Shown here: positions 3,896 to 23,880 of the stretch, piece by piece
Layout of the letters: the number at the start of each line of letters is the position of its first letter
Position numbering within the stretch: position 1 is the first letter of the stretch
IMG/VR virus record: IMGVR_UViG_3300047546_002341
Coordinates: 1 to 24,813 of that record
Reading direction: 5' to 3' (one strand)
From: a virus
Lineage: Duplodnaviria > Caudoviricetes
DNA: 24,813 bases
The notes under the pieces: generated by a model
What the model was told of the DNA's origin: nothing
What the model saw: the letters and a program-made list of their open reading frames with translations, nothing else
The model's database searches: none
Translations under genes and position numbers: made by a program

Positions 3896-4241
3896 GCTGG
3901 CCCGGCCCCCTGTCGAGGTCGCGGCGGCAGCGCGTCGCGGGTTGGAGTTGCGTGCGCAGCAACCCCCGTCAAACCGGGCGGGTACACCTGTCGGTCTTCG
4001 GCGGGCGGTACAGCTTGCCAATCGACAGCCTGTAAGTCTGTCGACACTGCAGCGGATGGTTTCATATTTTGCGCGGCATGAAGTTGACAAGCAAGGCGAA
4101 GGCTGGGGCGTCGACAGCAAAGGTTACCAAGCGTGGCTTTTGTGGGGCGGTGATGCCGGGCGCGCCTGGGCAAAACGTATGATCCCCAAAATGCACGGCT
4201 ACAAGCCTCAACCCAACCCATCGGAGAGCCCCGATGTCTGA
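3888..4241 (+). CDS. Small conserved phage head-module protein (AWLLWGGDAG motif)
   Basis: ATG 3888 overlaps the portal stop. ARRGLELR...GTPVG..RA.QLA...LS..T..RM.SYFARH...AWLLWGGDAG..WA is a motif I recognise from uncharacterised phage head-region proteins. Confidence 0.7.
   Translation: MPKLARPPVEVAAAARRGLELRAQQPPSNRAGTPVGLRRAVQLANRQPVSLSTLQRMVSYFARHEVDKQGEGWGVDSKGYQAWLLWGGDAGRAWAKRMIPKMHGYKPQPNPSESPDV
4219..4236 (+). promoter_or_regulatory. Start-associated hairpin repeat, copy 1 (CATCGGAGAGCCCCGATG)
   Basis: Exact 18-mer ending in the scaffold ATG. CATCGG/CCGATG form a 6-bp inverted repeat around AGAGCC, overlapping the SD-like GGAGAG. Confidence 0.8.
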
Positions 4242-4854
4242 TACCGATATGGTCCCCCGGTCCCGTCTGAACGAAGAGATCGCCAAGCGCAAAGAGCTTG
4301 AAGCCGATCTCGGCACATTGCGCGGCAATCTCGCAGCGGCAGAGGCAAAGGCAGCCGAAGCCGAAACCGTGCGGGCTGCACTTGCCAAGGCTACCGCTGA
4401 GTTTGAGACGTACAAAGTTGGCGTCGATGCCGGGATCACTGACCCGGAAGGGTTGGAGTTGGCGCGATACTATTACGACAAAGTGCCAGCGGGTGAGGGG
4501 GAAGACGCCAAGCCTGCGTTCGGCGATTGGATGGCCAAGCTCAAGACCGACGCCACGGCGCGCCCCAAGGGGCTTGGGGCCTACTTCGCGGACCAGCCTG
4601 CCGCGGCTACGGCGACGCCAGCGGCTGCGCCTGTAGCGCCGCCCAAGGCGGCACAGGCTGCCCCGCCGCGTAGTGCCGCCCCGCTGCCGCCCGCGGCGAC
4701 CGGCGCGAACCCTGCGCCGGCCCCGTCGCCTACGGCGGCAGGCTGGACCCGGGAAAGTATCGCGCAGATGGACCCGGCGACCTGGGCCGCCAATCGCGCC
4801 GATCTAATCAAGGCCGCATCGGCTGGGCTGGTGTCTAAACTCGGCGGTGCGTAA
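4234..4854 (+). CDS. Capsid scaffolding protein
   Basis: N-terminal VPRSRLNEEIAKRKELE coiled coil, Ala/Pro-rich linker and C-terminal helix WTRESIAQMDPATWAANRADLI. Sits directly upstream of the major capsid gene. Confidence 0.8.
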   Translation: MSDTDMVPRSRLNEEIAKRKELEADLGTLRGNLAAAEAKAAEAETVRAALAKATAEFETYKVGVDAGITDPEGLELARYYYDKVPAGEGEDAKPAFGDWMAKLKTDATARPKGLGAYFADQPAAATATPAAAPVAPPKAAQAAPPRSAAPLPPAATGANPAPAPSPTAAGWTRESIAQMDPATWAANRADLIKAASAGLVSKLGGA

Positions 4855-4855
4855 C

Positions 4856-4884
4856 TTGCACCTATTGCGCGACCGTGCTACCGT
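4856..4884 (+). promoter_or_regulatory. Putative promoter for the major capsid gene
   Basis: TTGCAC (4856-4861), 17-nt spacer, extended -10 TGc-TACCGT (4879-4884), in the intergenic gap after the scaffold stop. Confidence 0.55.
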
Positions 4885-4892
4885 TTGATTGA

Positions 4893-4933
4893 CGGCTATC
4901 ACGGGCGCACCGTGTAACAAATGCGAATGGCCG
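4893..4933 (+). ncRNA. Candidate structured 5' leader (H-type pseudoknot) of the capsid mRNA
   Basis: S1 CACGG(4900-4904)/CCGTG(4910-4914); S2 CGCA(4906-4909)/TGCG(4922-4925); loop TAACAAA; flanking stem CGGCTAT(4893-4899)/ATGGCCG(4927-4933). Predicted by eye. Confidence 0.45.
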
Positions 4934-4973
4934 GCAGTGACCACACTACCTTCCAACGCCTTTGAGGTGCCTA

Positions 4974-5891
4974 ATGGCGAACGAGATTCTTGCCGCATCG
5001 TCGGACTTTTTGGTTGCATCCGTCCTTGAGATGGAGATTCTGACCAAGCTCAACAGCCTGATCAACCTGCGCGGTAGCCCCGCCCTGGTTGACTTTTCGC
5101 CGATGGCTTCGCGCGGCAGCCTCACCCTGGCGATTCCCCTCGCCGGCTGGGACAGCCTTGCGATGACCGCCCCCGGTGAAGCGACCGGTGTCAGCAACAC
5201 CGCGCTGGACAGCGATCAGATCACCTTGACCATTGCCCGGCAGGCTATCCAGTTGCAAGTCTCTGACGAGCTTCTGGTTTCCAGCCTGGGCGGCGCGATG
5301 AACATCGAGCGTCTTGCGCAGTCGACCGTTAGCGCCTACCTGAACCGTCACAACGATCTGACTGTTGGCCTGTTCAGCGGTGTGACCGCTTCGGCTGGCA
5401 CTTCGGGCGCCGACCTGACCCTCGATGACGTCATCGACGCCATGCAAACCTTGATGAAGGCCAACAACACCGATGGCCTGTACTGCATGCTCCACGGTCA
5501 GCAGATGGCCGACCTGCAGAACAGCCTTCGTGGTGAGGGCGGCGCGCTGTCTTTCGCGGCCCCGACCGCCGAAATGATCGCGGCCAAGGGCAAGGGCTAC
5601 GCGGGTAGCTACCTGGGTGTGGACTTCTGGGTGAACAACCGTGTGGCCACCGCCAACGCGGGCGCCGATCGCGCCGGCTGCATGTGGAGCCGCGGCGCCT
5701 TTGGTTACGCGGAAGCTACCCACCCGCTGTCTGCCCTGCGCGGTTCGCTCAACCCGCAGATCGTTAGCCCTGTGGTTGTCGAGTTCGAGCGCACCGGCAC
5801 CAGCGGTCTGAACACCGTGATCGCCTCCGCCTTCCTGGGCGTGGCCATGGTCGAAGACGCCCGCGCCTGCAAGATCGTCACCGACGCCTGA
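4974..5891 (+). CDS. Major capsid protein (HK97 fold presumed)
   Basis: 305 aa, follows the scaffold, SD GAGGTG, strongly biased codon usage. Capsid-like features include an E-loop GE(A)T, DLTLDDVIDA, LHGQQMADL and GSYLGVDFWVNNRV. Confidence 0.88.
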   Translation: MANEILAASSDFLVASVLEMEILTKLNSLINLRGSPALVDFSPMASRGSLTLAIPLAGWDSLAMTAPGEATGVSNTALDSDQITLTIARQAIQLQVSDELLVSSLGGAMNIERLAQSTVSAYLNRHNDLTVGLFSGVTASAGTSGADLTLDDVIDAMQTLMKANNTDGLYCMLHGQQMADLQNSLRGEGGALSFAAPTAEMIAAKGKGYAGSYLGVDFWVNNRVATANAGADRAGCMWSRGAFGYAEATHPLSALRGSLNPQIVSPVVVEFERTGTSGLNTVIASAFLGVAMVEDARACKIVTDA

Positions 5892-5902
5892 TCGGTGAGT
5901 CA

Positions 5903-5932
5903 CCCGACGGGCGGCTAACCCCGCCCGTCGGG
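5903..5932 (+). terminator. Perfect 12-bp GC hairpin after the capsid gene (terminator or mRNA stabiliser; no U-tract)
   Basis: CCCGACGGGCGG-CTAACC-CCGCCCGTCGGG, 11 nt after the capsid stop codon. Confidence 0.6.
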
Positions 5933-5978
5933 CCTGCCGCGGGTCAGGCTATACCCGCCCCTCTTGTGTTTCCCCCCA

Positions 5979-5996
5979 CATCGGAGAGCCCCGATG
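5979..5996 (+). promoter_or_regulatory. Start-associated hairpin repeat, copy 2
   Basis: Exact CATCGGAGAGCCCCGATG ending in ATG 5994. Confidence 0.8.
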
Positions 5997-6662
5997 CCGT
6001 TGCCTACTACCGCACGCCGCGCCGCAGAAGCCCCTATCTTGGGTGAGTCTGTCGGCAGTCTGACCACGAGCGAACGCCTGCGCATTGACCCGTCGCCCGC
6101 GTTCCTGTTGTCGTGTAGCCCTGAAAGCTATGAGCTTTCCGATATCGACGGCGAACCGGTGTACCTGCCCACTGTGCAGCGGCATGACGTTTCGCCCGGC
6201 TCTAACGGTGTGGACAAAGCTGGCGGCATCGCGCACTTTTCGGCCAACCTGCACACTCGCGGGCAGGTCTTGATCCAGCCGAACCAATGCCCGGCGGACC
6301 TGACCCCTGATGGGCGGCCCGGGTATCTGCGTCGGTATGAGGGCACGCAGGGCCTTGTGCATCTTGAAGCGTGGGTACAGGTCGTCAAGGCCCCGGGCAA
6401 CAAGCACGTTGCACAGCTTACCCGCGACAATGAACAGCTTTACCGCAAATGGCGGCTTTGGCTGATGGAATCGGGTATTGTTCCGTTCCCCTCTGACGAT
6501 TGGATTCAGCGGTATGAGGACCGCCTTGGGGAACGTGCCCTTCGTCGGGCAACCCAAGCAAGCGCGCCAGAGGTCAAAGCCGAGCGCGCGGCAGAGGCGG
6601 ACGCCAACTTGAAGCGCGCACGCAAGGCGCGTGCAAACGTTGCGGAGGTCGCCAATGGGTGA
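5994..6662 (+). CDS. Hypothetical protein (222 aa) in the head/neck module
   Basis: Clean ORF starting in the repeated RBS hairpin and overlapping the next gene. No recognisable family. Confidence 0.7.
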   Translation: MPLPTTARRAAEAPILGESVGSLTTSERLRIDPSPAFLLSCSPESYELSDIDGEPVYLPTVQRHDVSPGSNGVDKAGGIAHFSANLHTRGQVLIQPNQCPADLTPDGRPGYLRRYEGTQGLVHLEAWVQVVKAPGNKHVAQLTRDNEQLYRKWRLWLMESGIVPFPSDDWIQRYEDRLGERALRRATQASAPEVKAERAAEADANLKRARKARANVAEVANG

Positions 6663-6840
6663 ATCTGTCGCAGGCCGGCGGGCTATGGAAGAGACGCAGC
6701 GCAGATTGGTCAATGAAGGCATGCGCCCCGATCGCGCAGCCGAAATCGCGCGCGACTCTGCCATCCGGATTGATATAAGAGAACAGGGCGGGAAACCGCC
6801 CCCGCGCCGGTCGGATACCGGAAGCAACCCGCGGCGATAA
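6655..6840 (+). CDS. Small hypothetical protein (61 aa)
   Basis: ATG 6655 behind GGAGGT, overlapping the upstream stop and filling the gap between neighbours. Confidence 0.6.
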   Translation: MGESVAGRRAMEETQRRLVNEGMRPDRAAEIARDSAIRIDIREQGGKPPPRRSDTGSNPRR

Positions 6841-6844
6841 GCCG

Positions 6845-6864
6845 CGCCCGGGTAAAGCCGGGCG
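6845..6864 (+). other. Intergenic hairpin
   Basis: CGCCCGG-GTAAAG-CCGGGCG between stop 6840 and the RBS GGGAGA of the next gene. Confidence 0.35.
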
Positions 6865-6873
6865 GGAGACACT

Positions 6874-7329
6874 ATGCCAAAAGGGCCCCTTCGTTTCCGC
6901 GATGCCGTAGGCGCCGCGTTCCGCAAACTGACTGTGTGGACCAGCGGCGCCGAATCGGCGGTCGCGACCAGCCCCACGGTTACCAGCGGCAGCGGTGCAC
7001 CTTCGGCCAGTGAGCCCAACGGCTCGGTCTATCTGCGCACCAATGGCGCATCGGCGAACACCCTGTATCTGCGTATCAGCGGCGCATGGGTTTCGGTTGG
7101 CGCTTCGGTTCTGCCGTCCACTTCGGTCTTCTTGTCGACCGAACAGACCGGCAGCGGTAGCGCGCAGAACGTGGCGCACGGTTTCGGCACCGTCCCTGCG
7201 CTTGCCTTTGCGATTCCTTCGGATCACTCTGGCGGCGCATTCACGATCACCTATGGCACTCACACGAGCACTAACGTTGTGGTCACTGTGACCAACAACG
7301 AGAAGTACCGCGTGGTCGCCTTCAAGTGA
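6874..7329 (+). CDS. Probable head decoration or fibre protein
   Basis: Ser/Thr/Gly-rich beta protein with GSGAPSASEPNGSVYLRTNG...LY, a motif typical of phage fibre or trimer domains, and a C-terminal V.HGFGTVP. Capsid-like codon bias. Confidence 0.5.
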   Translation: MPKGPLRFRDAVGAAFRKLTVWTSGAESAVATSPTVTSGSGAPSASEPNGSVYLRTNGASANTLYLRISGAWVSVGASVLPSTSVFLSTEQTGSGSAQNVAHGFGTVPALAFAIPSDHSGGAFTITYGTHTSTNVVVTVTNNEKYRVVAFK

Positions 7330-7352
7330 TCTGACGGCAGGGAGGCCACACA

Positions 7353-8093
7353 ATGAGCGCGACCGCATACCAAGCGAGAATGTCCGGCCCGACCCTTTTG
7401 GAGAAGGGCCGCGACACTGTGATTTCTCTGCCCGTCTACAAAGACGGCGCGTTGGTCACTCCCTCGGCGGTTGTCGTTTCGGTGTGGTCTGCCGCAAATG
7501 CCCTTGTGGTTGCGGCTGCGTCGGGTTCGGTAGTGGGCTCAATCGCTACCTATACCGTGCCAGCCGCATCCACCTCTGCGCTTGCGTATGGGGCAGATTG
7601 GCGCATCGAATGGACGTTGACCCTTGCCGGCGTTGTTGAGGTCTTTCAGACCGATGCGGCGTTGGTTCGCAACCCCATTCGATGCCCGGTGACTGACCTG
7701 GACCTATACGCGCGAGAGCCAAGCCTGAACCCGTCTGGTTCTGCGCCGATTCACAGCCTAAGCAACTTCCAGGCATTTATCCACGATGCGTGGAAGACCC
7801 TGCTAAACCGACTTCTTGCCGATGGTCAGTACCCTTGGAAGATGCCAAGCGCAGCGGTAGTGCGCGAAGCCGCTTTGGCTTTGACGTTGCACCGTGTGTT
7901 TATGGCATTCACTACGGGTCTGAACGAAAGCTATGGAAAGTCGGCAGATGTGTATCGCCGGGACTATGAGGCTGCATACAACGCAATCCGGTACACAGAA
8001 GTCATCGACCCTGACAGCCCATCACCCACGGGTAACAAGGTCGCGGCCCGCCCTGTGTATTTCTTGGGTCAGCCCAAGCGGAGGGCCTTCTAA
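7353..8093 (+). CDS. Probable head-tail adaptor (neck) protein with an N-terminal Ig-like beta domain
   Basis: SD GGAGG. Beta-rich N-half and helical C-half (REAALALTLHRVF...YRRDYEAA). Position between head and tail genes. Confidence 0.5.
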   Translation: MSATAYQARMSGPTLLEKGRDTVISLPVYKDGALVTPSAVVVSVWSAANALVVAAASGSVVGSIATYTVPAASTSALAYGADWRIEWTLTLAGVVEVFQTDAALVRNPIRCPVTDLDLYAREPSLNPSGSAPIHSLSNFQAFIHDAWKTLLNRLLADGQYPWKMPSAAVVREAALALTLHRVFMAFTTGLNESYGKSADVYRRDYEAAYNAIRYTEVIDPDSPSPTGNKVAARPVYFLGQPKRRAF

Positions 8094-8551
8094 TGGCCCT
8101 GACAGTCTCAGATCTGATCGATAGGATCGGCGATCACTTGGTCGCGACCCTGCCGACTTCGCCGGATGCGGCGCGCTGGACCCGTTCGCGGTTCCTGCCG
8201 CCACAGTTAGGGCAAGATACTGAGGCCAAGATTGCGCGGTGTTGGTCTGTGTGGTCGCCATCCTTGACGATCACACAGCCAACCCAGCGGCAGGTTTCGA
8301 GCGAAGGCGTACACGTTACGTCCACGATCGAAGCCGGGTTCAGCTTTGCGCTTCGGCAAGACGGCACCGCGGCGGACTACACCGCGGCGCTTGCCGCCGA
8401 AGCCGCGTTCACGGCGGCGCTGTTCAGCGTGGGGCGGGCGTCTTTGCCCCGCTTCACGTTACAGACGGTTAGCCGGCAAGTGCAGACCGATAACCGTACC
8501 CTTGTGGTAGTGTTGACCTTGTTTGCTTCCCACCAAATCCCGCTGACCTGA
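8093..8551 (+). CDS. Probable tail terminator or completion protein
   Basis: 152 aa, TAATG-coupled, immediately before the tail tube gene. N-terminal helix followed by an alpha/beta pattern. Confidence 0.45.
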   Translation: MALTVSDLIDRIGDHLVATLPTSPDAARWTRSRFLPPQLGQDTEAKIARCWSVWSPSLTITQPTQRQVSSEGVHVTSTIEAGFSFALRQDGTAADYTAALAAEAAFTAALFSVGRASLPRFTLQTVSRQVQTDNRTLVVVLTLFASHQIPLT

Positions 8552-8561
8552 GAGGTACGCC

Positions 8562-9062
8562 ATGCCGGCTTCTGTTATCCCCAAGCACTTCACCGATGGG
8601 TCTGTCACCTTCAAAGATGGCACCGGCACGCCGGTTACCCTGTCGGTTCCGTTCACGATGGGCGACTGTTCGATTAGTGGCCTTGCGCAAGATGCGCTTG
8701 GTCGCGCGACGAATGCCTATGAAACCCGTGGCGTCCTGGTCGGCTTGCGCCGTGGCGCGCGGGAGTATCCGACGTTTTCGATGTCTTTGATGGTGCCAGA
8801 CGTCAGCGACGGCACCAACGTCACCCCGCTTGACTTCATTCGCAAGAAGGGTGCCTATACATCGAACGTGTCAACGACCACGGCCCTGGGTGATGTCTAC
8901 ACGATCGATATCGTGCTGACGATCGAAGGCACCGACCTGGGCGACGCCGCCGACCATACCTTCACCCTCGAAGATGTGGATTGCCGCGCCGACTTCGCCG
9001 AGGGCGAGCCCAACACGCTGACGATCAACGGCACGATCTACGGCACGATTACCCCGGCCTAA
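8562..9062 (+). CDS. Major tail (tube) protein
   Basis: 166 aa Thr/Gly/Asp-rich beta protein with SD GAGGT, optimised codons and C-terminal FAEGEPNTLTING. Upstream of the chaperone and tape measure genes. Confidence 0.7.
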   Translation: MPASVIPKHFTDGSVTFKDGTGTPVTLSVPFTMGDCSISGLAQDALGRATNAYETRGVLVGLRRGAREYPTFSMSLMVPDVSDGTNVTPLDFIRKKGAYTSNVSTTTALGDVYTIDIVLTIEGTDLGDAADHTFTLEDVDCRADFAEGEPNTLTINGTIYGTITPA

Positions 9063-9082
9063 GTTGGTCGCCTAACCATCCA

Positions 9083-9100
9083 CATCGGAGAGCCCCGATG
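9083..9100 (+). promoter_or_regulatory. Start-associated hairpin repeat, copy 3
   Basis: Exact CATCGGAGAGCCCCGATG ending in ATG 9098. Shares a longer 23-mer, CCACATCGGAGAGCCCCGATGCC, with copy 2. Confidence 0.8.
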
Positions 9101-9430
9101 CCCGACAACATCACATTTGGCGGCGCCACTTACGCGCTGCATGCCCCTCGCAGCCCAGCCCGTGCGGCGGCTGTCCTGCAAATCCAGGCCAAAGACAGTC
9201 CCCACGTTGCGCTTGCCGCGGCGTTGGGCCTGTGTGCGGACTGTCACGGGGTCCAATGGAAAGGGTCGGCATCGGCTTTCGGTGAAGCCGTCTTCGACGC
9301 GCTGCAGGCCCGAAAGGTTGCCTTCGGCGCGATTTGCGAGGCCGGCGCAAAGTGCATGGAGCTTGTCGCAAGCGCCGTGCTCTTTGAGGATGAGGTCGCC
9401 ACCGAAGAGGCTTTTACCGCGGCCCCGTAG
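9098..9430 (+). CDS. Tail assembly chaperone (lambda gpG analogue)
   Basis: 110 aa beginning MPDNITFGGATYAL (chaperone-like start), located between the tail tube and tape measure genes. Confidence 0.65.
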   Translation: MPDNITFGGATYALHAPRSPARAAAVLQIQAKDSPHVALAAALGLCADCHGVQWKGSASAFGEAVFDALQARKVAFGAICEAGAKCMELVASAVLFEDEVATEEAFTAAP

Positions 9431-9612
9431 GTCGGTTGGATTTCCAGACCTTGGAAATCTGCCGCCTGTGGGGCCAAGCGCCGGGATGGTGGGGCACCCT
9501 ATCGCGCACCGATAGGGTAGCCCTTACCGCGTGGTATCGGGTACACTGTGACCCGACGAAGGGGCAAGCCAAGGCGCCACCGCCACCGCCACCGCCTGCG
9601 CGTCGCCGGTGA
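9412..9612 (+). CDS. Chaperone -1 frame extension (gpT analogue), not in the ORF track
   Basis: The -1 frame is open 9394-9612: FYRGPVGRLDFQTLEICRLWGQAPGWWGTLSRTDRVALTAWYRVHCD...PPPPPPARRR*. It overlaps the chaperone end at GGCTTTTA (9409-9416) and stops 3 nt before the next ATG. TTG 9436 is an alternative independent start. Confidence 0.6.
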   Translation, partial: FYRGPVGRLDFQTLEICRLWGQAPGWWGTLSRTDRVALTAWYRVHCDPTKGQAKAPPPPPPPARRR

Positions 9613-17306: not shown

Positions 17307-17332
17307 ACCGGCACGATTGACCGTGCTACGCT
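17304..17332 (+). promoter_or_regulatory. Putative internal late promoter
   Basis: TAGACC, 17-nt spacer, TGc-TACGCT. Shares GACCGTGCTAC with the capsid promoter. SD GAGGTG at 17341. Confidence 0.45.
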
Positions 17333-17682: not shown

Positions 17683-19065
17683 ATGCCACGCCTGCGCACA
17701 CGCATCATTCCCCGCCCCGGCGGTTCGGTTGTCGACCTGACGCCGCCGACCCCACCATCCCCACAATCCCTCGCATCGTCGGCGACGACTGCAAGCCTGA
17801 CCTGGACCCATACCGGGGCGCCCGCGGGCACTACGTATGCGCTGACTGTGGTTGATGATGCTGGCGGTTCCGTGTCGCCTTCGTCGGGTTCCGGACTTGG
17901 TGCATACGTTATCCCTGTCACAGCAGGCAAGGCGTATACCGCACGCCTTCGCGCGACCGGTACAGATGGTCAAATCGCCCAATCCAGCGCGCTTGTATAT
18001 GTCGCGACCGCCGATCTGTCGGCACCAACCCCACCATCCCCACAATCCCTCGCATCGTCGGCAACGACTGCAAGCCTGACTTGGACCCATTCAACTGCAC
18101 CTGTAGGCACAACCTATACCCTCGCAGTGGTGGACGAAACCGGCGCTTCCGTGTCGCCTTCGTCGGGTTCCGGTCTTGGCGCATACGTTATCCCTGTCAC
18201 AGCGGGCAAGGCGTATACCGCACGGTTGCGGGCGACGGGTCCAGACGGGCAACTCTCACAGTCGAGTGCACTTGTATATGTGGCACCATCTGCCACTATC
18301 GCCGGCGCGTGGACACAGATTGGTTTGGTGAATTTTGTAGGCGCGACTGCGCAGACGTTTACCACGACGGGCGATAAGACAGTAACCTTGGCCGATTCTT
18401 CGACGGTGACCGTCAACGTGTCAATGTCGGTCGGCACCGTGACTACAGGCACGGCGGGCGCGGATGCAACGCGCGGCCTCATCGCTGATGTCCCTGGCGC
18501 GGTGGCATCGACGGCATACCGCCTGCGGACGGCGGTTCCTGTCTCCCCATCGATTGCCAGCACCGACGATCTGCTGGTGTCCATCCGCTGGCGGGCCAAT
18601 CTCGCCACGGGCACGGGGCAGCGGGCGCTGGTGGGTGTCACTGTCGCAAGCGGAAGCGAGGCATCAACCGAGTTCTCAGGCGGTGTCCTGCAAAACACCG
18701 CGACTAATGCGGTGAAATGGCAATGCCGCAAAACCGCGACCGTCGCCGATGTGGCGGCATCGGTGGACACTGGCTGGCGCGATGGTACTACGCGCATCCA
18801 AACCGATGTGCGCGTGGTCGGTAAGGCGCGGACATTGTTCGCAACGGCGACCAGCCGCAACGTTGACAGTGGAACCGCAACATATACCAGCGACATCGGC
18901 GGCGATAGCTCAGGACCAAACGCGGGCCTTGAAGCTCCGCTGTTTAGTGGATCAACGGTGTATGTCCAACTGTATAGTTGGAATGGCGGCGCATCCGGCG
19001 CGGCGTGCTCTACCGCGATTGAGCGAATCACTGTGTATTCGCGCGCATCAACCCGCGTACCCTGA
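17683..19065 (+). CDS. Putative adhesin or fibre with two tandem FN3-like domains and a C-terminal beta-sandwich (lectin-like) domain
   Basis: Two 93-aa repeats with the pattern TASLTWT...Y.L...G..YTARLRAT, typical of fibronectin type III. Start is ATG 17683 or GTG 17674. Confidence 0.65.
   Translation: MPRLRTRIIPRPGGSVVDLTPPTPPSPQSLASSATTASLTWTHTGAPAGTTYALTVVDDAGGSVSPSSGSGLGAYVIPVTAGKAYTARLRATGTDGQIAQSSALVYVATADLSAPTPPSPQSLASSATTASLTWTHSTAPVGTTYTLAVVDETGASVSPSSGSGLGAYVIPVTAGKAYTARLRATGPDGQLSQSSALVYVAPSATIAGAWTQIGLVNFVGATAQTFTTTGDKTVTLADSSTVTVNVSMSVGTVTTGTAGADATRGLIADVPGAVASTAYRLRTAVPVSPSIASTDDLLVSIRWRANLATGTGQRALVGVTVASGSEASTEFSGGVLQNTATNAVKWQCRKTATVADVAASVDTGWRDGTTRIQTDVRVVGKARTLFATATSRNVDSGTATYTSDIGGDSSGPNAGLEAPLFSGSTVYVQLYSWNGGASGAACSTAIERITVYSRASTRVP
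17749..18281 (+). repeat. Intragenic tandem duplication, 279-bp period
   Basis: 17749-18002 aligns with 18028-18281 (for example ACCCCACCATCCCCACAATCCCTCGCATCGTCGGC in both). Confidence 0.95.
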
Positions 19066-21262: not shown

Positions 21263-21448
21263 TTAGACGGCGCGGCGGCGGGCGCTGGCGATCTGGCGCG
21301 CGGTCAGGCTGTGGCAGGTGGTGTAGTGCCCCGCCACACTGTCCCAAACGCGGACCGTTCCATCCGCGTCAACGCGGGCGCGGTAGGTGCCACGCTCACA
21401 GATGAAGGCGTTACGGACAGTGGTGTAGCGGGTGGCGGTGGCAGTCAT
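21263..21448 (-). CDS. Small conserved phage protein (DGTVRVWDSVAGHYTTCHSL motif)
   Basis: ATG 21448 behind GGAGCCGACC. The motif is one I recognise from uncharacterised small phage proteins. Confidence 0.7.
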   Translation of the reverse strand: MTATATRYTTVRNAFICERGTYRARVDADGTVRVWDSVAGHYTTCHSLTARQIASARRRAV

Positions 21449-21504: not shown

Positions 21505-21561
21505 TTTGTACCCCGGCACGTTCTACAGTGCAATAACTTTCGCGCACAAAGTGCGAAGAAA
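21505..21561 (-). promoter_or_regulatory. Early promoter cassette, copy 1
   Basis: Minus strand TTGCAC, 17 nt, TACAAA, preceded by the box TTTGTGCGCGAAAGTTA that is repeated near 23850. Confidence 0.65.
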
Positions 21562-23823: not shown

Positions 23824-23880
23824 ACACTATCGGACCGCCCTCAAAGCTGCAATAGCTTTCGCGCACAAACACGAAAGAAA
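23824..23880 (-). promoter_or_regulatory. Early promoter cassette, copy 2
   Basis: Minus strand TTGCAG, 17 nt, TAGTGT, preceded by TTTGTGCGCGAAAGCTA. 21 of 22 nt identical to copy 1. Confidence 0.65.

What the first reader, a model, noticed from the sequence alone, without database searches (positions are those of the whole stretch)
4219..9100. Identical 18-nt RBS/start-codon hairpin on three separate assembly genes: candidate translational regulon
Seen: CATCGGAGAGCCCCGATG occurs exactly at 4219-4236, 5979-5996 and 9083-9100, each time ending on the ATG of a gene (scaffold, the unknown 222-aa ORF, tail assembly chaperone). CATCGG pairs with CCGATG, placing the AUG in a 6-bp stem with the SD-like GGAGAG at the stem/loop junction. 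Copy 1 is kept even though it also encodes the C-terminus of the upstream gene. I did not see it at any other start. Established: P22 scaffolding protein regulates its own synthesis post-transcriptionally, and Cluster K mycobacteriophages carry start-associated sequences. Inference: a shared RNA operator coordinates translation of non-structural assembly factors across the head and tail modules, perhaps through a phage RNA-binding protein. A palindromic DNA operator (CATCGG-N6-CCGATG) is the alternative, but the invariant loop and fixed register on ATG favour RNA.
Basis: partly seen in the sequence, partly recalled or inferred. Interest (0 to 1): 0.85.

Follow-up and report, generated by a model that had tools for sequence, protein, structure and literature searches.

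The report
Shared translation switch for assembly helpers
Three phage assembly-helper genes start with an identical self-pairing ribosome-binding site; in distant relatives the same three genes share a different word whose antisense copy sits just after the capsid gene, so this is likely an undescribed RNA switch that jointly damps their translation.

Summary
Confirmed, and larger than first reported. The 18-mer occurs exactly three times and sits unchanged at 68 of 69 orthologous scaffold, 222-aa and tail-chaperone starts in a clade whose flanks and synonymous sites have drifted.

Across distant lineages (capsid 34-45% identical) the same three genes share a lineage-specific ribosome-binding word, in 28 of 33 lineages more than other genes do. 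The start-codon hairpin itself is not kept. Instead, 23 of 33 lineages carry the reverse complement of their own word in a hairpin right after the capsid gene (0 of 20,000 permutations). The window's clade and one other lineage lack that seed and have self-complementary sites, with a compensatory CAT/ATG versus CAC/GTG change.

Best reading: a three-gene translational regulon that occludes the ribosome-binding site. A seed RNA likely does this in most relatives. Here a local hairpin does it, probably read by an unidentified phage protein.

Against: direct pairing with the two distal genes is only borderline (p=0.07), some lineages keep the shared word with neither seed nor hairpin, and no regulator was found. 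Nothing matching turned up in Rfam, the literature searched or earlier scan notes.

The parts
4219..4236 (+). Operator copy 1: self-complementary RBS hairpin ending on the scaffold ATG
5979..5996 (+). Operator copy 2, ending on the ATG of the 222-aa post-capsid gene
9083..9100 (+). Operator copy 3, ending on the tail assembly chaperone ATG
5971..5978 (+). C/A-rich, almost G-free stretch before the operator (likewise 4211-4218 and 9075-9082); sequence varies, composition is kept
   Evidence: per-position counts over 47 distinct start contexts
4234..4854 (+). Head scaffolding protein gene (target 1)
   Evidence: position before the capsid gene; 12 of 55 orthologues hit phrog_194
4974..5891 (+). 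Major capsid protein gene; its RBS is not part of the shared set
   Evidence: PF25209 and phrog_267; 13 RBS variants in 26 clade loci
5903..5958 (+). Post-capsid structured RNA: 12-bp hairpin (5903-5932) plus predicted H-type pseudoknot (5933-5958). In most distant lineages the element at this place carries the antisense seed; here it does not
   Evidence: covariation; seed; absence in the clade
5994..6662 (+). 222-aa gene of unknown function (target 2), found in 176 of the loci examined; confident model, no fold match in the PDB
9098..9612 (+). Tail assembly chaperone G (9098-9430) with predicted -1 frameshift extension (slippery-like GGCTTTT 9409-9415, open frame to 9612) (target 3)

Best explanation
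The 18-mer is an invariant, self-complementary ribosome-binding site shared by the scaffold, post-capsid and tail-chaperone genes, and it is likely this clade's form of a family-wide switch that damps translation of these three assembly helpers by closing their ribosome-binding sites in a short RNA helix. Shown: the same three genes share a lineage-specific RBS word across the family, and in most lineages the reverse complement of that word lies 27-42 nt after the capsid stop, in the loop or 3' arm of a +strand hairpin. Inferred: that seed pairs with the adjacent 222-aa RBS as a pseudoknot and probably with the scaffold and chaperone RBSs at long range or in trans from the capsid mRNA 3' end, tying helper output to capsid expression. 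Inferred for the window's clade, which has no seed: each site closes on itself over the SD and AUG, and a partner that reads all 18 nt keeps the three copies frozen. I take that partner to be a phage-encoded assembly protein (scaffold or the 222-aa protein, both found across the family), about 40% for this step.
For: Invariance: 68 of 69 protein-ascertained starts exact; the one miss is a start-picking error, exact. Flanks -40..-16 are 48-59% identical and capsid 4-fold sites 55-62% identical in relatives with 86-91% capsid protein identity. 61 of 61 triad copies found through the 3' part keep the 5' arm. 12 of 45 single changes are predicted nearly neutral for hairpin and SD, yet none is seen. 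Family: of 66 gene pairs the three triad pairs rank first (8.4, 8.8, 7.1 against 3.4-5.1). Without the window clade, triad exceeds other pairs in 28 of 33 lineages (p=4e-7) and within-genome exceeds cross-lineage in 24 of 30. Seed: cognate complement 7.3, 7.8 and 8.4 nt against about 5.4 non-cognate, with nine other genes showing no excess. Distal-only permutation 0 of 20,000; capsid RBS null. The element is the best joint complement in the whole locus in 14 of 35 lineages and second in 4. 5 of 7 element-bearing lineages fetched after the hypothesis have the seed, one with a 17-nt perfect match to the chaperone RBS. The +strand fold is more stable in 24 of 30. Lineages that lost the element have weak sharing (L170, L155, L219, L197). 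L278 (37% capsid identity) has CACGG-AGGACC-CCGTG on three GTG starts.
Against: No expression or binding data; RNA-library contigs show presence only. Distal sites do not clearly match the seed beyond the core they share with the 222-aa site: 10 of 30 against 10.7 expected; energy test p=0.067, with 4 of 40 sites individually at p<=0.05. No G-U excess at duplex edges: A-C exceeds G-U in 15 against 3 of 22 lineages, at the same ratio as in outer flanks. The seed is predicted paired inside its own hairpin in many lineages (mean unpaired 0.47). L258, L263, L434, L250 and L248 keep a shared word with neither seed nor self-hairpin, and the complete genome G007 has no non-coding antisense. No regulator was identified: no Com or CsrA match in 5 records each. 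In G008 the word also precedes an SSB-like gene.
Confidence: 0.55

Rival explanations
1. All-RNA model: in the window's clade the near-palindromic sites are their own antisense, so the three copies pair with each other and no protein is needed.
For: The family default is RNA-RNA complementarity. Both seedless clades with long identical words are near-palindromes with the same loop pattern (A.C, G-C, tandem purine mismatch). A site-to-site duplex is predicted 5.1-8.6 kcal/mol more stable than two hairpins at standard state. Mutual pairing would freeze all three copies.
Against: The margin is about what dilution to cellular concentrations costs (inference), local hairpins form first, the pattern rests on two lineages, and it does not explain L434-type lineages.
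Confidence: 0.2
2. Protein-only regulon: one phage protein reads the word in every lineage, and the seed only pairs with the neighbouring 222-aa RBS in cis, so its match to the distal sites is indirect.
For: Lineages with a shared word but no seed or hairpin; weak distal extension tests; in seed lineages scaffold and chaperone RBSs are locally open (5.3 kcal/mol to open) while the 222-aa RBS is closed (9.3).
Against: Single strong distal matches beyond the shared core (L413 chaperone 17 nt, p=0.003; L163 scaffold; L274 scaffold 13 nt); sharing decays where the element is lost; no candidate reader found.
Confidence: 0.25
3. No regulation: a lineage's favoured strong RBS, copied between independently translated genes and kept for output level.
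For: Early genes of the clade use related GGAGCC-type starts; G008 uses the word at an SSB-like start.
Against: Capsid and tail-tube starts are equally uncoupled, have similar SD strength and vary freely; triad exceeds uncoupled genes in 27 of 33 lineages; it explains neither invariance at predicted neutral positions nor the co-evolving antisense copy.
Confidence: 0.1
4. DNA operator: a dimeric protein binds CATCGG-N6-CCGATG, or an asymmetric word with one inverted copy, and acts on transcription.
For: The arms form a perfect palindrome; the wobble test gave no RNA-specific signal.
Against: The spacer is invariant; distant lineages have no palindrome; every copy is the gene's SD with SD-like spacing; the inverted copy sits in a +strand hairpin at variable distance.
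Confidence: 0.07

Closest known systems
Leviviridae (MS2/R17) coat-protein translational operator (PMC3561173, passages read)
   Same: An about 20-nt hairpin around an initiation codon; a protein binding it represses translation.
   Different: Single site in an RNA phage, needing a loop adenine four nt before the start and an unpaired purine in the stem. Here there are three copies in a tailed DNA phage, a perfect stem without a bulge, and no known binder.
Cluster K mycobacteriophage start-associated sequences (PMC3203893, passages read)
   Same: Repeated SD-containing word at gene starts, conserved beyond the rRNA-pairing positions, function unknown.
   Different: SAS has 11-19 copies, is asymmetric, lies 3-7 bp before starts of non-structural right-arm genes. 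Here there are three fixed morphogenesis genes, the word changes by lineage, and it has an antisense partner or a self-hairpin.
Phage P1 C4 antisense RNA (PMC8201110, passages read; mechanism otherwise recalled)
   Same: A phage-encoded structured RNA that regulates the phage's own genes by pairing; target specificity differing between related phages is recalled.
   Different: C4 controls icd/ant in the immunity region. This element follows the capsid gene and matches three assembly-helper RBSs. No Rfam family matched.
P22 scaffolding protein autoregulation (Wyckoff and Casjens 1985; title seen in the reference list of PMC2115188 only)
   Same: Post-transcriptional control of scaffold supply (recalled).
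   Different: One gene, no shared operator on head and tail helpers known to me (recalled).
Mu Com and CsrA-type RBS-binding proteins (recalled; Com lead from an earlier scan note)
   Same: Small proteins acting on hairpins at ribosome-binding sites.
   Different: No PF10122 or PF02599 match in the records searched; many lineage words lack GGA.

Membership tests
Cluster K SAS | 13-bp consensus GGGATAGGAGCCC, asymmetric, 11-19 copies | tested here: not met
   different sequence, three copies per record
Cluster K SAS | Restricted to non-structural right-arm genes | tested here: not met
   all copies are in the head-tail operon
Cluster K SAS | Repeated SD-containing word conserved beyond rRNA-pairing positions | tested here: met
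Leviviridae translational operator | Hairpin that contains SD and start codon | tested here: met
   predicted fold; one compensatory lineage
Leviviridae translational operator | Unpaired purine in the stem and loop adenine four nt before the start | tested here: not met
   perfect 6-bp stem; position -4 is C
Leviviridae translational operator | Bound by a phage protein that represses translation | not testable with these tools
   needs binding and reporter assays
Trans-acting antisense RNA (C4-like, sRNA) | Exposed seed complementary to target RBSs, co-varying with them | tested here: met
   in 23 of 33 distant lineages; exposure only partial; not present in the window clade
Trans-acting antisense RNA (C4-like, sRNA) | Direct pairing with distal targets | tested here: inconclusive
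Trans-acting antisense RNA (C4-like, sRNA) | Exists as a discrete or 3'-terminal transcript | not testable with these tools
   only assembled contigs available
Rfam RNA families | Match at gathering score | tested here: not met
   0 in window, L160, L145, L274; best E 0.78 around 4800-6050
Com or CsrA regulon | Phage encodes a Com zinc ribbon or CsrA | tested here: inconclusive
   0 of 5 records each, but records are 46-78% complete by CheckV
Palindromic DNA operator | Conserved arms with variable spacer | tested here: not met
   spacer invariant; no palindrome in most distant lineages

The most novel reading that the evidence does not exclude
A widespread aquatic phage family uses the 3' end of its capsid mRNA as an antisense RNA that meters translation of the scaffold, a new-fold post-capsid factor and the tail chaperone, with seed and three targets re-coded together in each lineage. 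In the window's clade the seed was dispensed with because the three start sites became palindromic and act as antisense to one another.
Probability: 0.25. Interest if true: 0.92.

Novelty: new variant of a known kind. Interest (0 to 1): 0.8.

Why it matters
How tailed phages set the ratio of assembly helpers to structural proteins inside one late operon is known for few cases, such as P22 scaffold autoregulation and chaperone frameshifting (recalled). Here one signal links a head helper, a tail helper and an unknown gene across a large uncultured family. The natural series of matched seed/target words makes the mechanism testable by swaps in reporter fusions, without a cultured host. It also offers a testable model for orphan start-associated sequences, and it suggests that the 222-aa protein is an assembly helper.

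Tried and rejected
Covariation inside the clade: impossible, the motif is invariant. AUG-in-stem as a family rule: rejected. A trans antisense for the window clade: no sub-word of 12 nt or more elsewhere in three records, and no conserved helix of 10 nt or more with G-U allowed. Pairing of the motif loop with GGCTC-like stretches of the clade's post-capsid element: not conserved, judged by eye. A switch thrown by the ribosome ending the capsid gene: seed exposure fell in 9 and rose in 7 of 27; the nascent element hides the seed (15 against 0). Wobble and flank-extension tests: no or borderline support. Regulator search: nothing recognisable among 40 ORFs of G002, no Com or CsrA. Fold of the 222-aa protein: no Foldseek PDB match for the whole protein or its domain, only coiled-coil rows in VIA-align, one uncharacterised viral match; the VIA-align run on the domain alone could not be queued, so that fold question is open. 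No PDB sequence, PHROG or Atlas lead. Bacterial genome matches: 3 of 29 are this phage inside a Sphingomonadaceae MAG, 15 are an unrelated Acidobacteriota repeat, 11 are scattered; the host is not established. Only cultured hit: 23% identity to a Pelagibacter phage capsid. The consensus promoter scan was at chance level. The tree is a quick tree only, and L278's place is uncertain.
Full report
Observation. The 18-mer is at the three stated places and nowhere else within 3 mismatches; 0 of 100 shuffles reached 3 copies. The window is a 24.8-kb phage fragment with terminase, portal-like gene, scaffold, capsid, 222-aa gene, head-tail genes, tail tube, chaperone, tape measure and endolysin on +, and ThyX on -. 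The labels of the targets hold. 12 of 55 scaffold orthologues hit phrog_194. The chaperone has an open -1 frame past its stop in 21 of 22 lineages with a conserved slippery-like site. The 222-aa protein folds confidently (pLDDT 84 whole, 93 for the domain) but matches no PDB fold in the searches that ran.

The clade. An exact scan of viral contigs gave 62 loci; 50 of 51 distinct contexts are starts of the same three genes, judged from the N-terminal sequences. To avoid picking by motif, I took 29 loci by capsid homology: 68 of 69 triad starts carry the exact 15 nt before ATG, and the one miss is exact under the HMM-based start call. Capsid identity reaches down to 64%. Flanks at -40..-16 are 48-59% identical. 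Capsid four-fold sites are 55-62% identical in relatives at 86-91% protein identity, and the capsid RBS has 13 forms in 26 loci. A scan with the 3' part alone found 61 triad copies, all 61 with the 5' arm. Five records of 44-52 kb have exactly three copies. Since nothing varies there is no covariation. 12 of 45 single changes are predicted near-neutral for hairpin and SD and none occurs, so plain occlusion does not explain the freeze. The overlap with the upstream gene is a subclade trait.

The family. 160 further loci with capsid identity of about 34-45% (a few within the clade) keep the gene order, and all loci fall into 38 lineages at 80% capsid identity. Start sites were chosen by an automatic SD-plus-HMM rule that is the same for all genes; some calls are wrong. 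Among 66 gene pairs the three triad pairs have the most similar upstream 20 nt (8.4, 8.8, 7.1 against 3.4-5.1). Leaving out the two window-clade lineages, triad exceeds other pairs in 28 of 33, exceeds uncoupled genes in 27 of 33, and within-genome exceeds cross-lineage in 24 of 30. The word differs by lineage (GGGAGCA, AGAGAGAGC, GAGGAC, AAAGGGA and others), so the three sites change in concert. Start-codon pairing is not enriched (0.33-0.48 against 0.35-0.62). One distant lineage, L278 and four close relatives, has CACGG-AGGACC-CCGTG on GTG starts: the same architecture with a compensatory change and one pair fewer.

The antisense seed. The roughly 100-nt gap after the capsid stop holds the reverse complement of the lineage's own word at offset 27-42. 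Cognate complement is 7.3 nt (scaffold, 17 of 28 at 7 or more), 7.8 (222-aa, 22 of 31) and 8.4 (chaperone, 12 of 17) against about 5.4 for non-cognate elements; nine other genes show no excess. With GC-binned permutation over lineages that have a 50-140-nt element, distal-only and adjacent tests both gave 0 of 20,000; the capsid RBS gave 13,253 and pooled controls 1,934 of 20,000; 23 of 33 lineages have two or more sites at 7 nt or more. Lineages are related, so these p-values are optimistic. 5 of 7 element-bearing lineages fetched after the idea carry the seed, with a 17-nt match to the L413 chaperone RBS. L406 and L420 were left out as the same lineage as L404, and L391, L401 and L428 lack such an element. 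The element folds better on + in 24 of 30. The seed sits at the 3' side of the loop or in the 3' arm, which fits an H-type pseudoknot with the adjacent RBS (inference). It is hidden in the nascent hairpin and partly exposed in the full element. Lineages with a gap of 8-27 nt have weak sharing.

What does not fit. Direct pairing with the distal sites is not shown: 10 of 30 edge matches against 10.7 expected, p=0.067 by energy with four individually strong sites of 40, and no G-U excess. Five lineages share a word with neither seed nor self-hairpin, and complete genome G007 has no non-coding antisense. In complete genome G008 the 10-mer occurs five times: three targets, the seed, and an SSB-like start. 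The window clade has no seed; its post-capsid gap holds a covarying hairpin and a self-contained pseudoknot (6 pairs with changes on both sides). No Com, CsrA or other recognisable RNA-binding protein was found, and the 3888 and 6655 ORFs were not detected in eight lineages that keep the word. RNA-library contigs cover parts of the region but give no strand or ends.

Mechanism. The constant across the family is one shared word on three helper RBSs; the usual companion is a helix that closes it. I read this as a translational regulon that damps or times helper synthesis relative to capsid (inferred). In seed lineages the capsid mRNA 3' end supplies the closing strand, very likely for the adjacent gene and probably for the other two. 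In the window clade each site closes on itself; predicted opening cost is about 9.5 kcal/mol at all three, against 5.3 for scaffold and chaperone in seed lineages. A partner must read the loop as well. A phage assembly protein is my first choice (about 40%), because lineages with neither structure seem to need a reader. Mutual pairing of the near-palindromic sites is second (duplex favoured by 5-8.6 kcal/mol at standard state).

Comparison and novelty. It works like the MS2 operator in geometry but lacks its defining bulge and loop adenine (PMC3561173, passages). It resembles Cluster K SAS as a phenomenon but fails sequence, number and gene class (PMC3203893, passages). It resembles P1 C4 as a phage antisense RNA on phage genes (PMC8201110, passages). 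P22 autoregulation was seen as a reference title only. I read part 1 of 6 of a review on phage sRNAs (PMC12197685), which did not mention such a system in that part. Searches listed no paper describing it; subscription literature is not covered and no supplements were read. Rfam has no match. Earlier scan notes show no look-alike stretch but several different leader RNAs before tail chaperone genes. Verdict: real, strongly selected, family-wide; a new variant of translational control, with the mechanism inferred; interest 0.8.

Noticed in passing
window 4894-4932 (+), capsid leader: A second RNA motif conserved across the family (GCC-CGGG-TCGCA-CCCG-TAACA-GCG..GGGC type; short stem, A-rich linker, possible small pseudoknot), about 10-15 nt after a promoter-like site; no Rfam match.
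   Followed up: partly
window 4856-4884 (+); similar at about 17317-17332 and 2038-2049: Promoter-like TTGCAC-17-TACCGT with TG before the -10 box upstream of the capsid gene, seen by eye and recurring in relatives; not listed by the consensus scan.
   Followed up: partly
window 5933-5958 (+): Clade-specific predicted H-type pseudoknot after the post-capsid hairpin, with covariation; partly deleted in L064 and L073.
   Followed up: partly
window 21529-21561 and 23848-23880; starts at 21448 and 23776 (-): Duplicated promoter-like repeat on the early strand, each followed by a small ORF whose start shares GGAGCCGACCATG; similar starts recur on early genes of G002.
   Followed up: no
L217 2700-2943, L244 7916-8161, L259 7916-8163: One sub-clade has a 240-nt highly structured post-capsid gap and a duplicated GGTCACTCCCACC motif in the capsid leader.
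   Followed up: no
L155 about 6956: In a lineage without the element, a 13-nt complement of the 222-aa RBS lies inside that gene's own coding region.
   Followed up: no
L449 (G008 7327-7336): The lineage's triad word also forms the RBS of an oppositely oriented SSB-like gene.
   Followed up: partly
L096-L124: The same 18-mer lies inside a dispersed repeat of more than 100 nt in two Acidobacteriota MAGs, unrelated to gene starts.
   Followed up: no
window 17733-18284: Two 273-nt tandem repeats (82% identical) in a putative tail gene.
   Followed up: no
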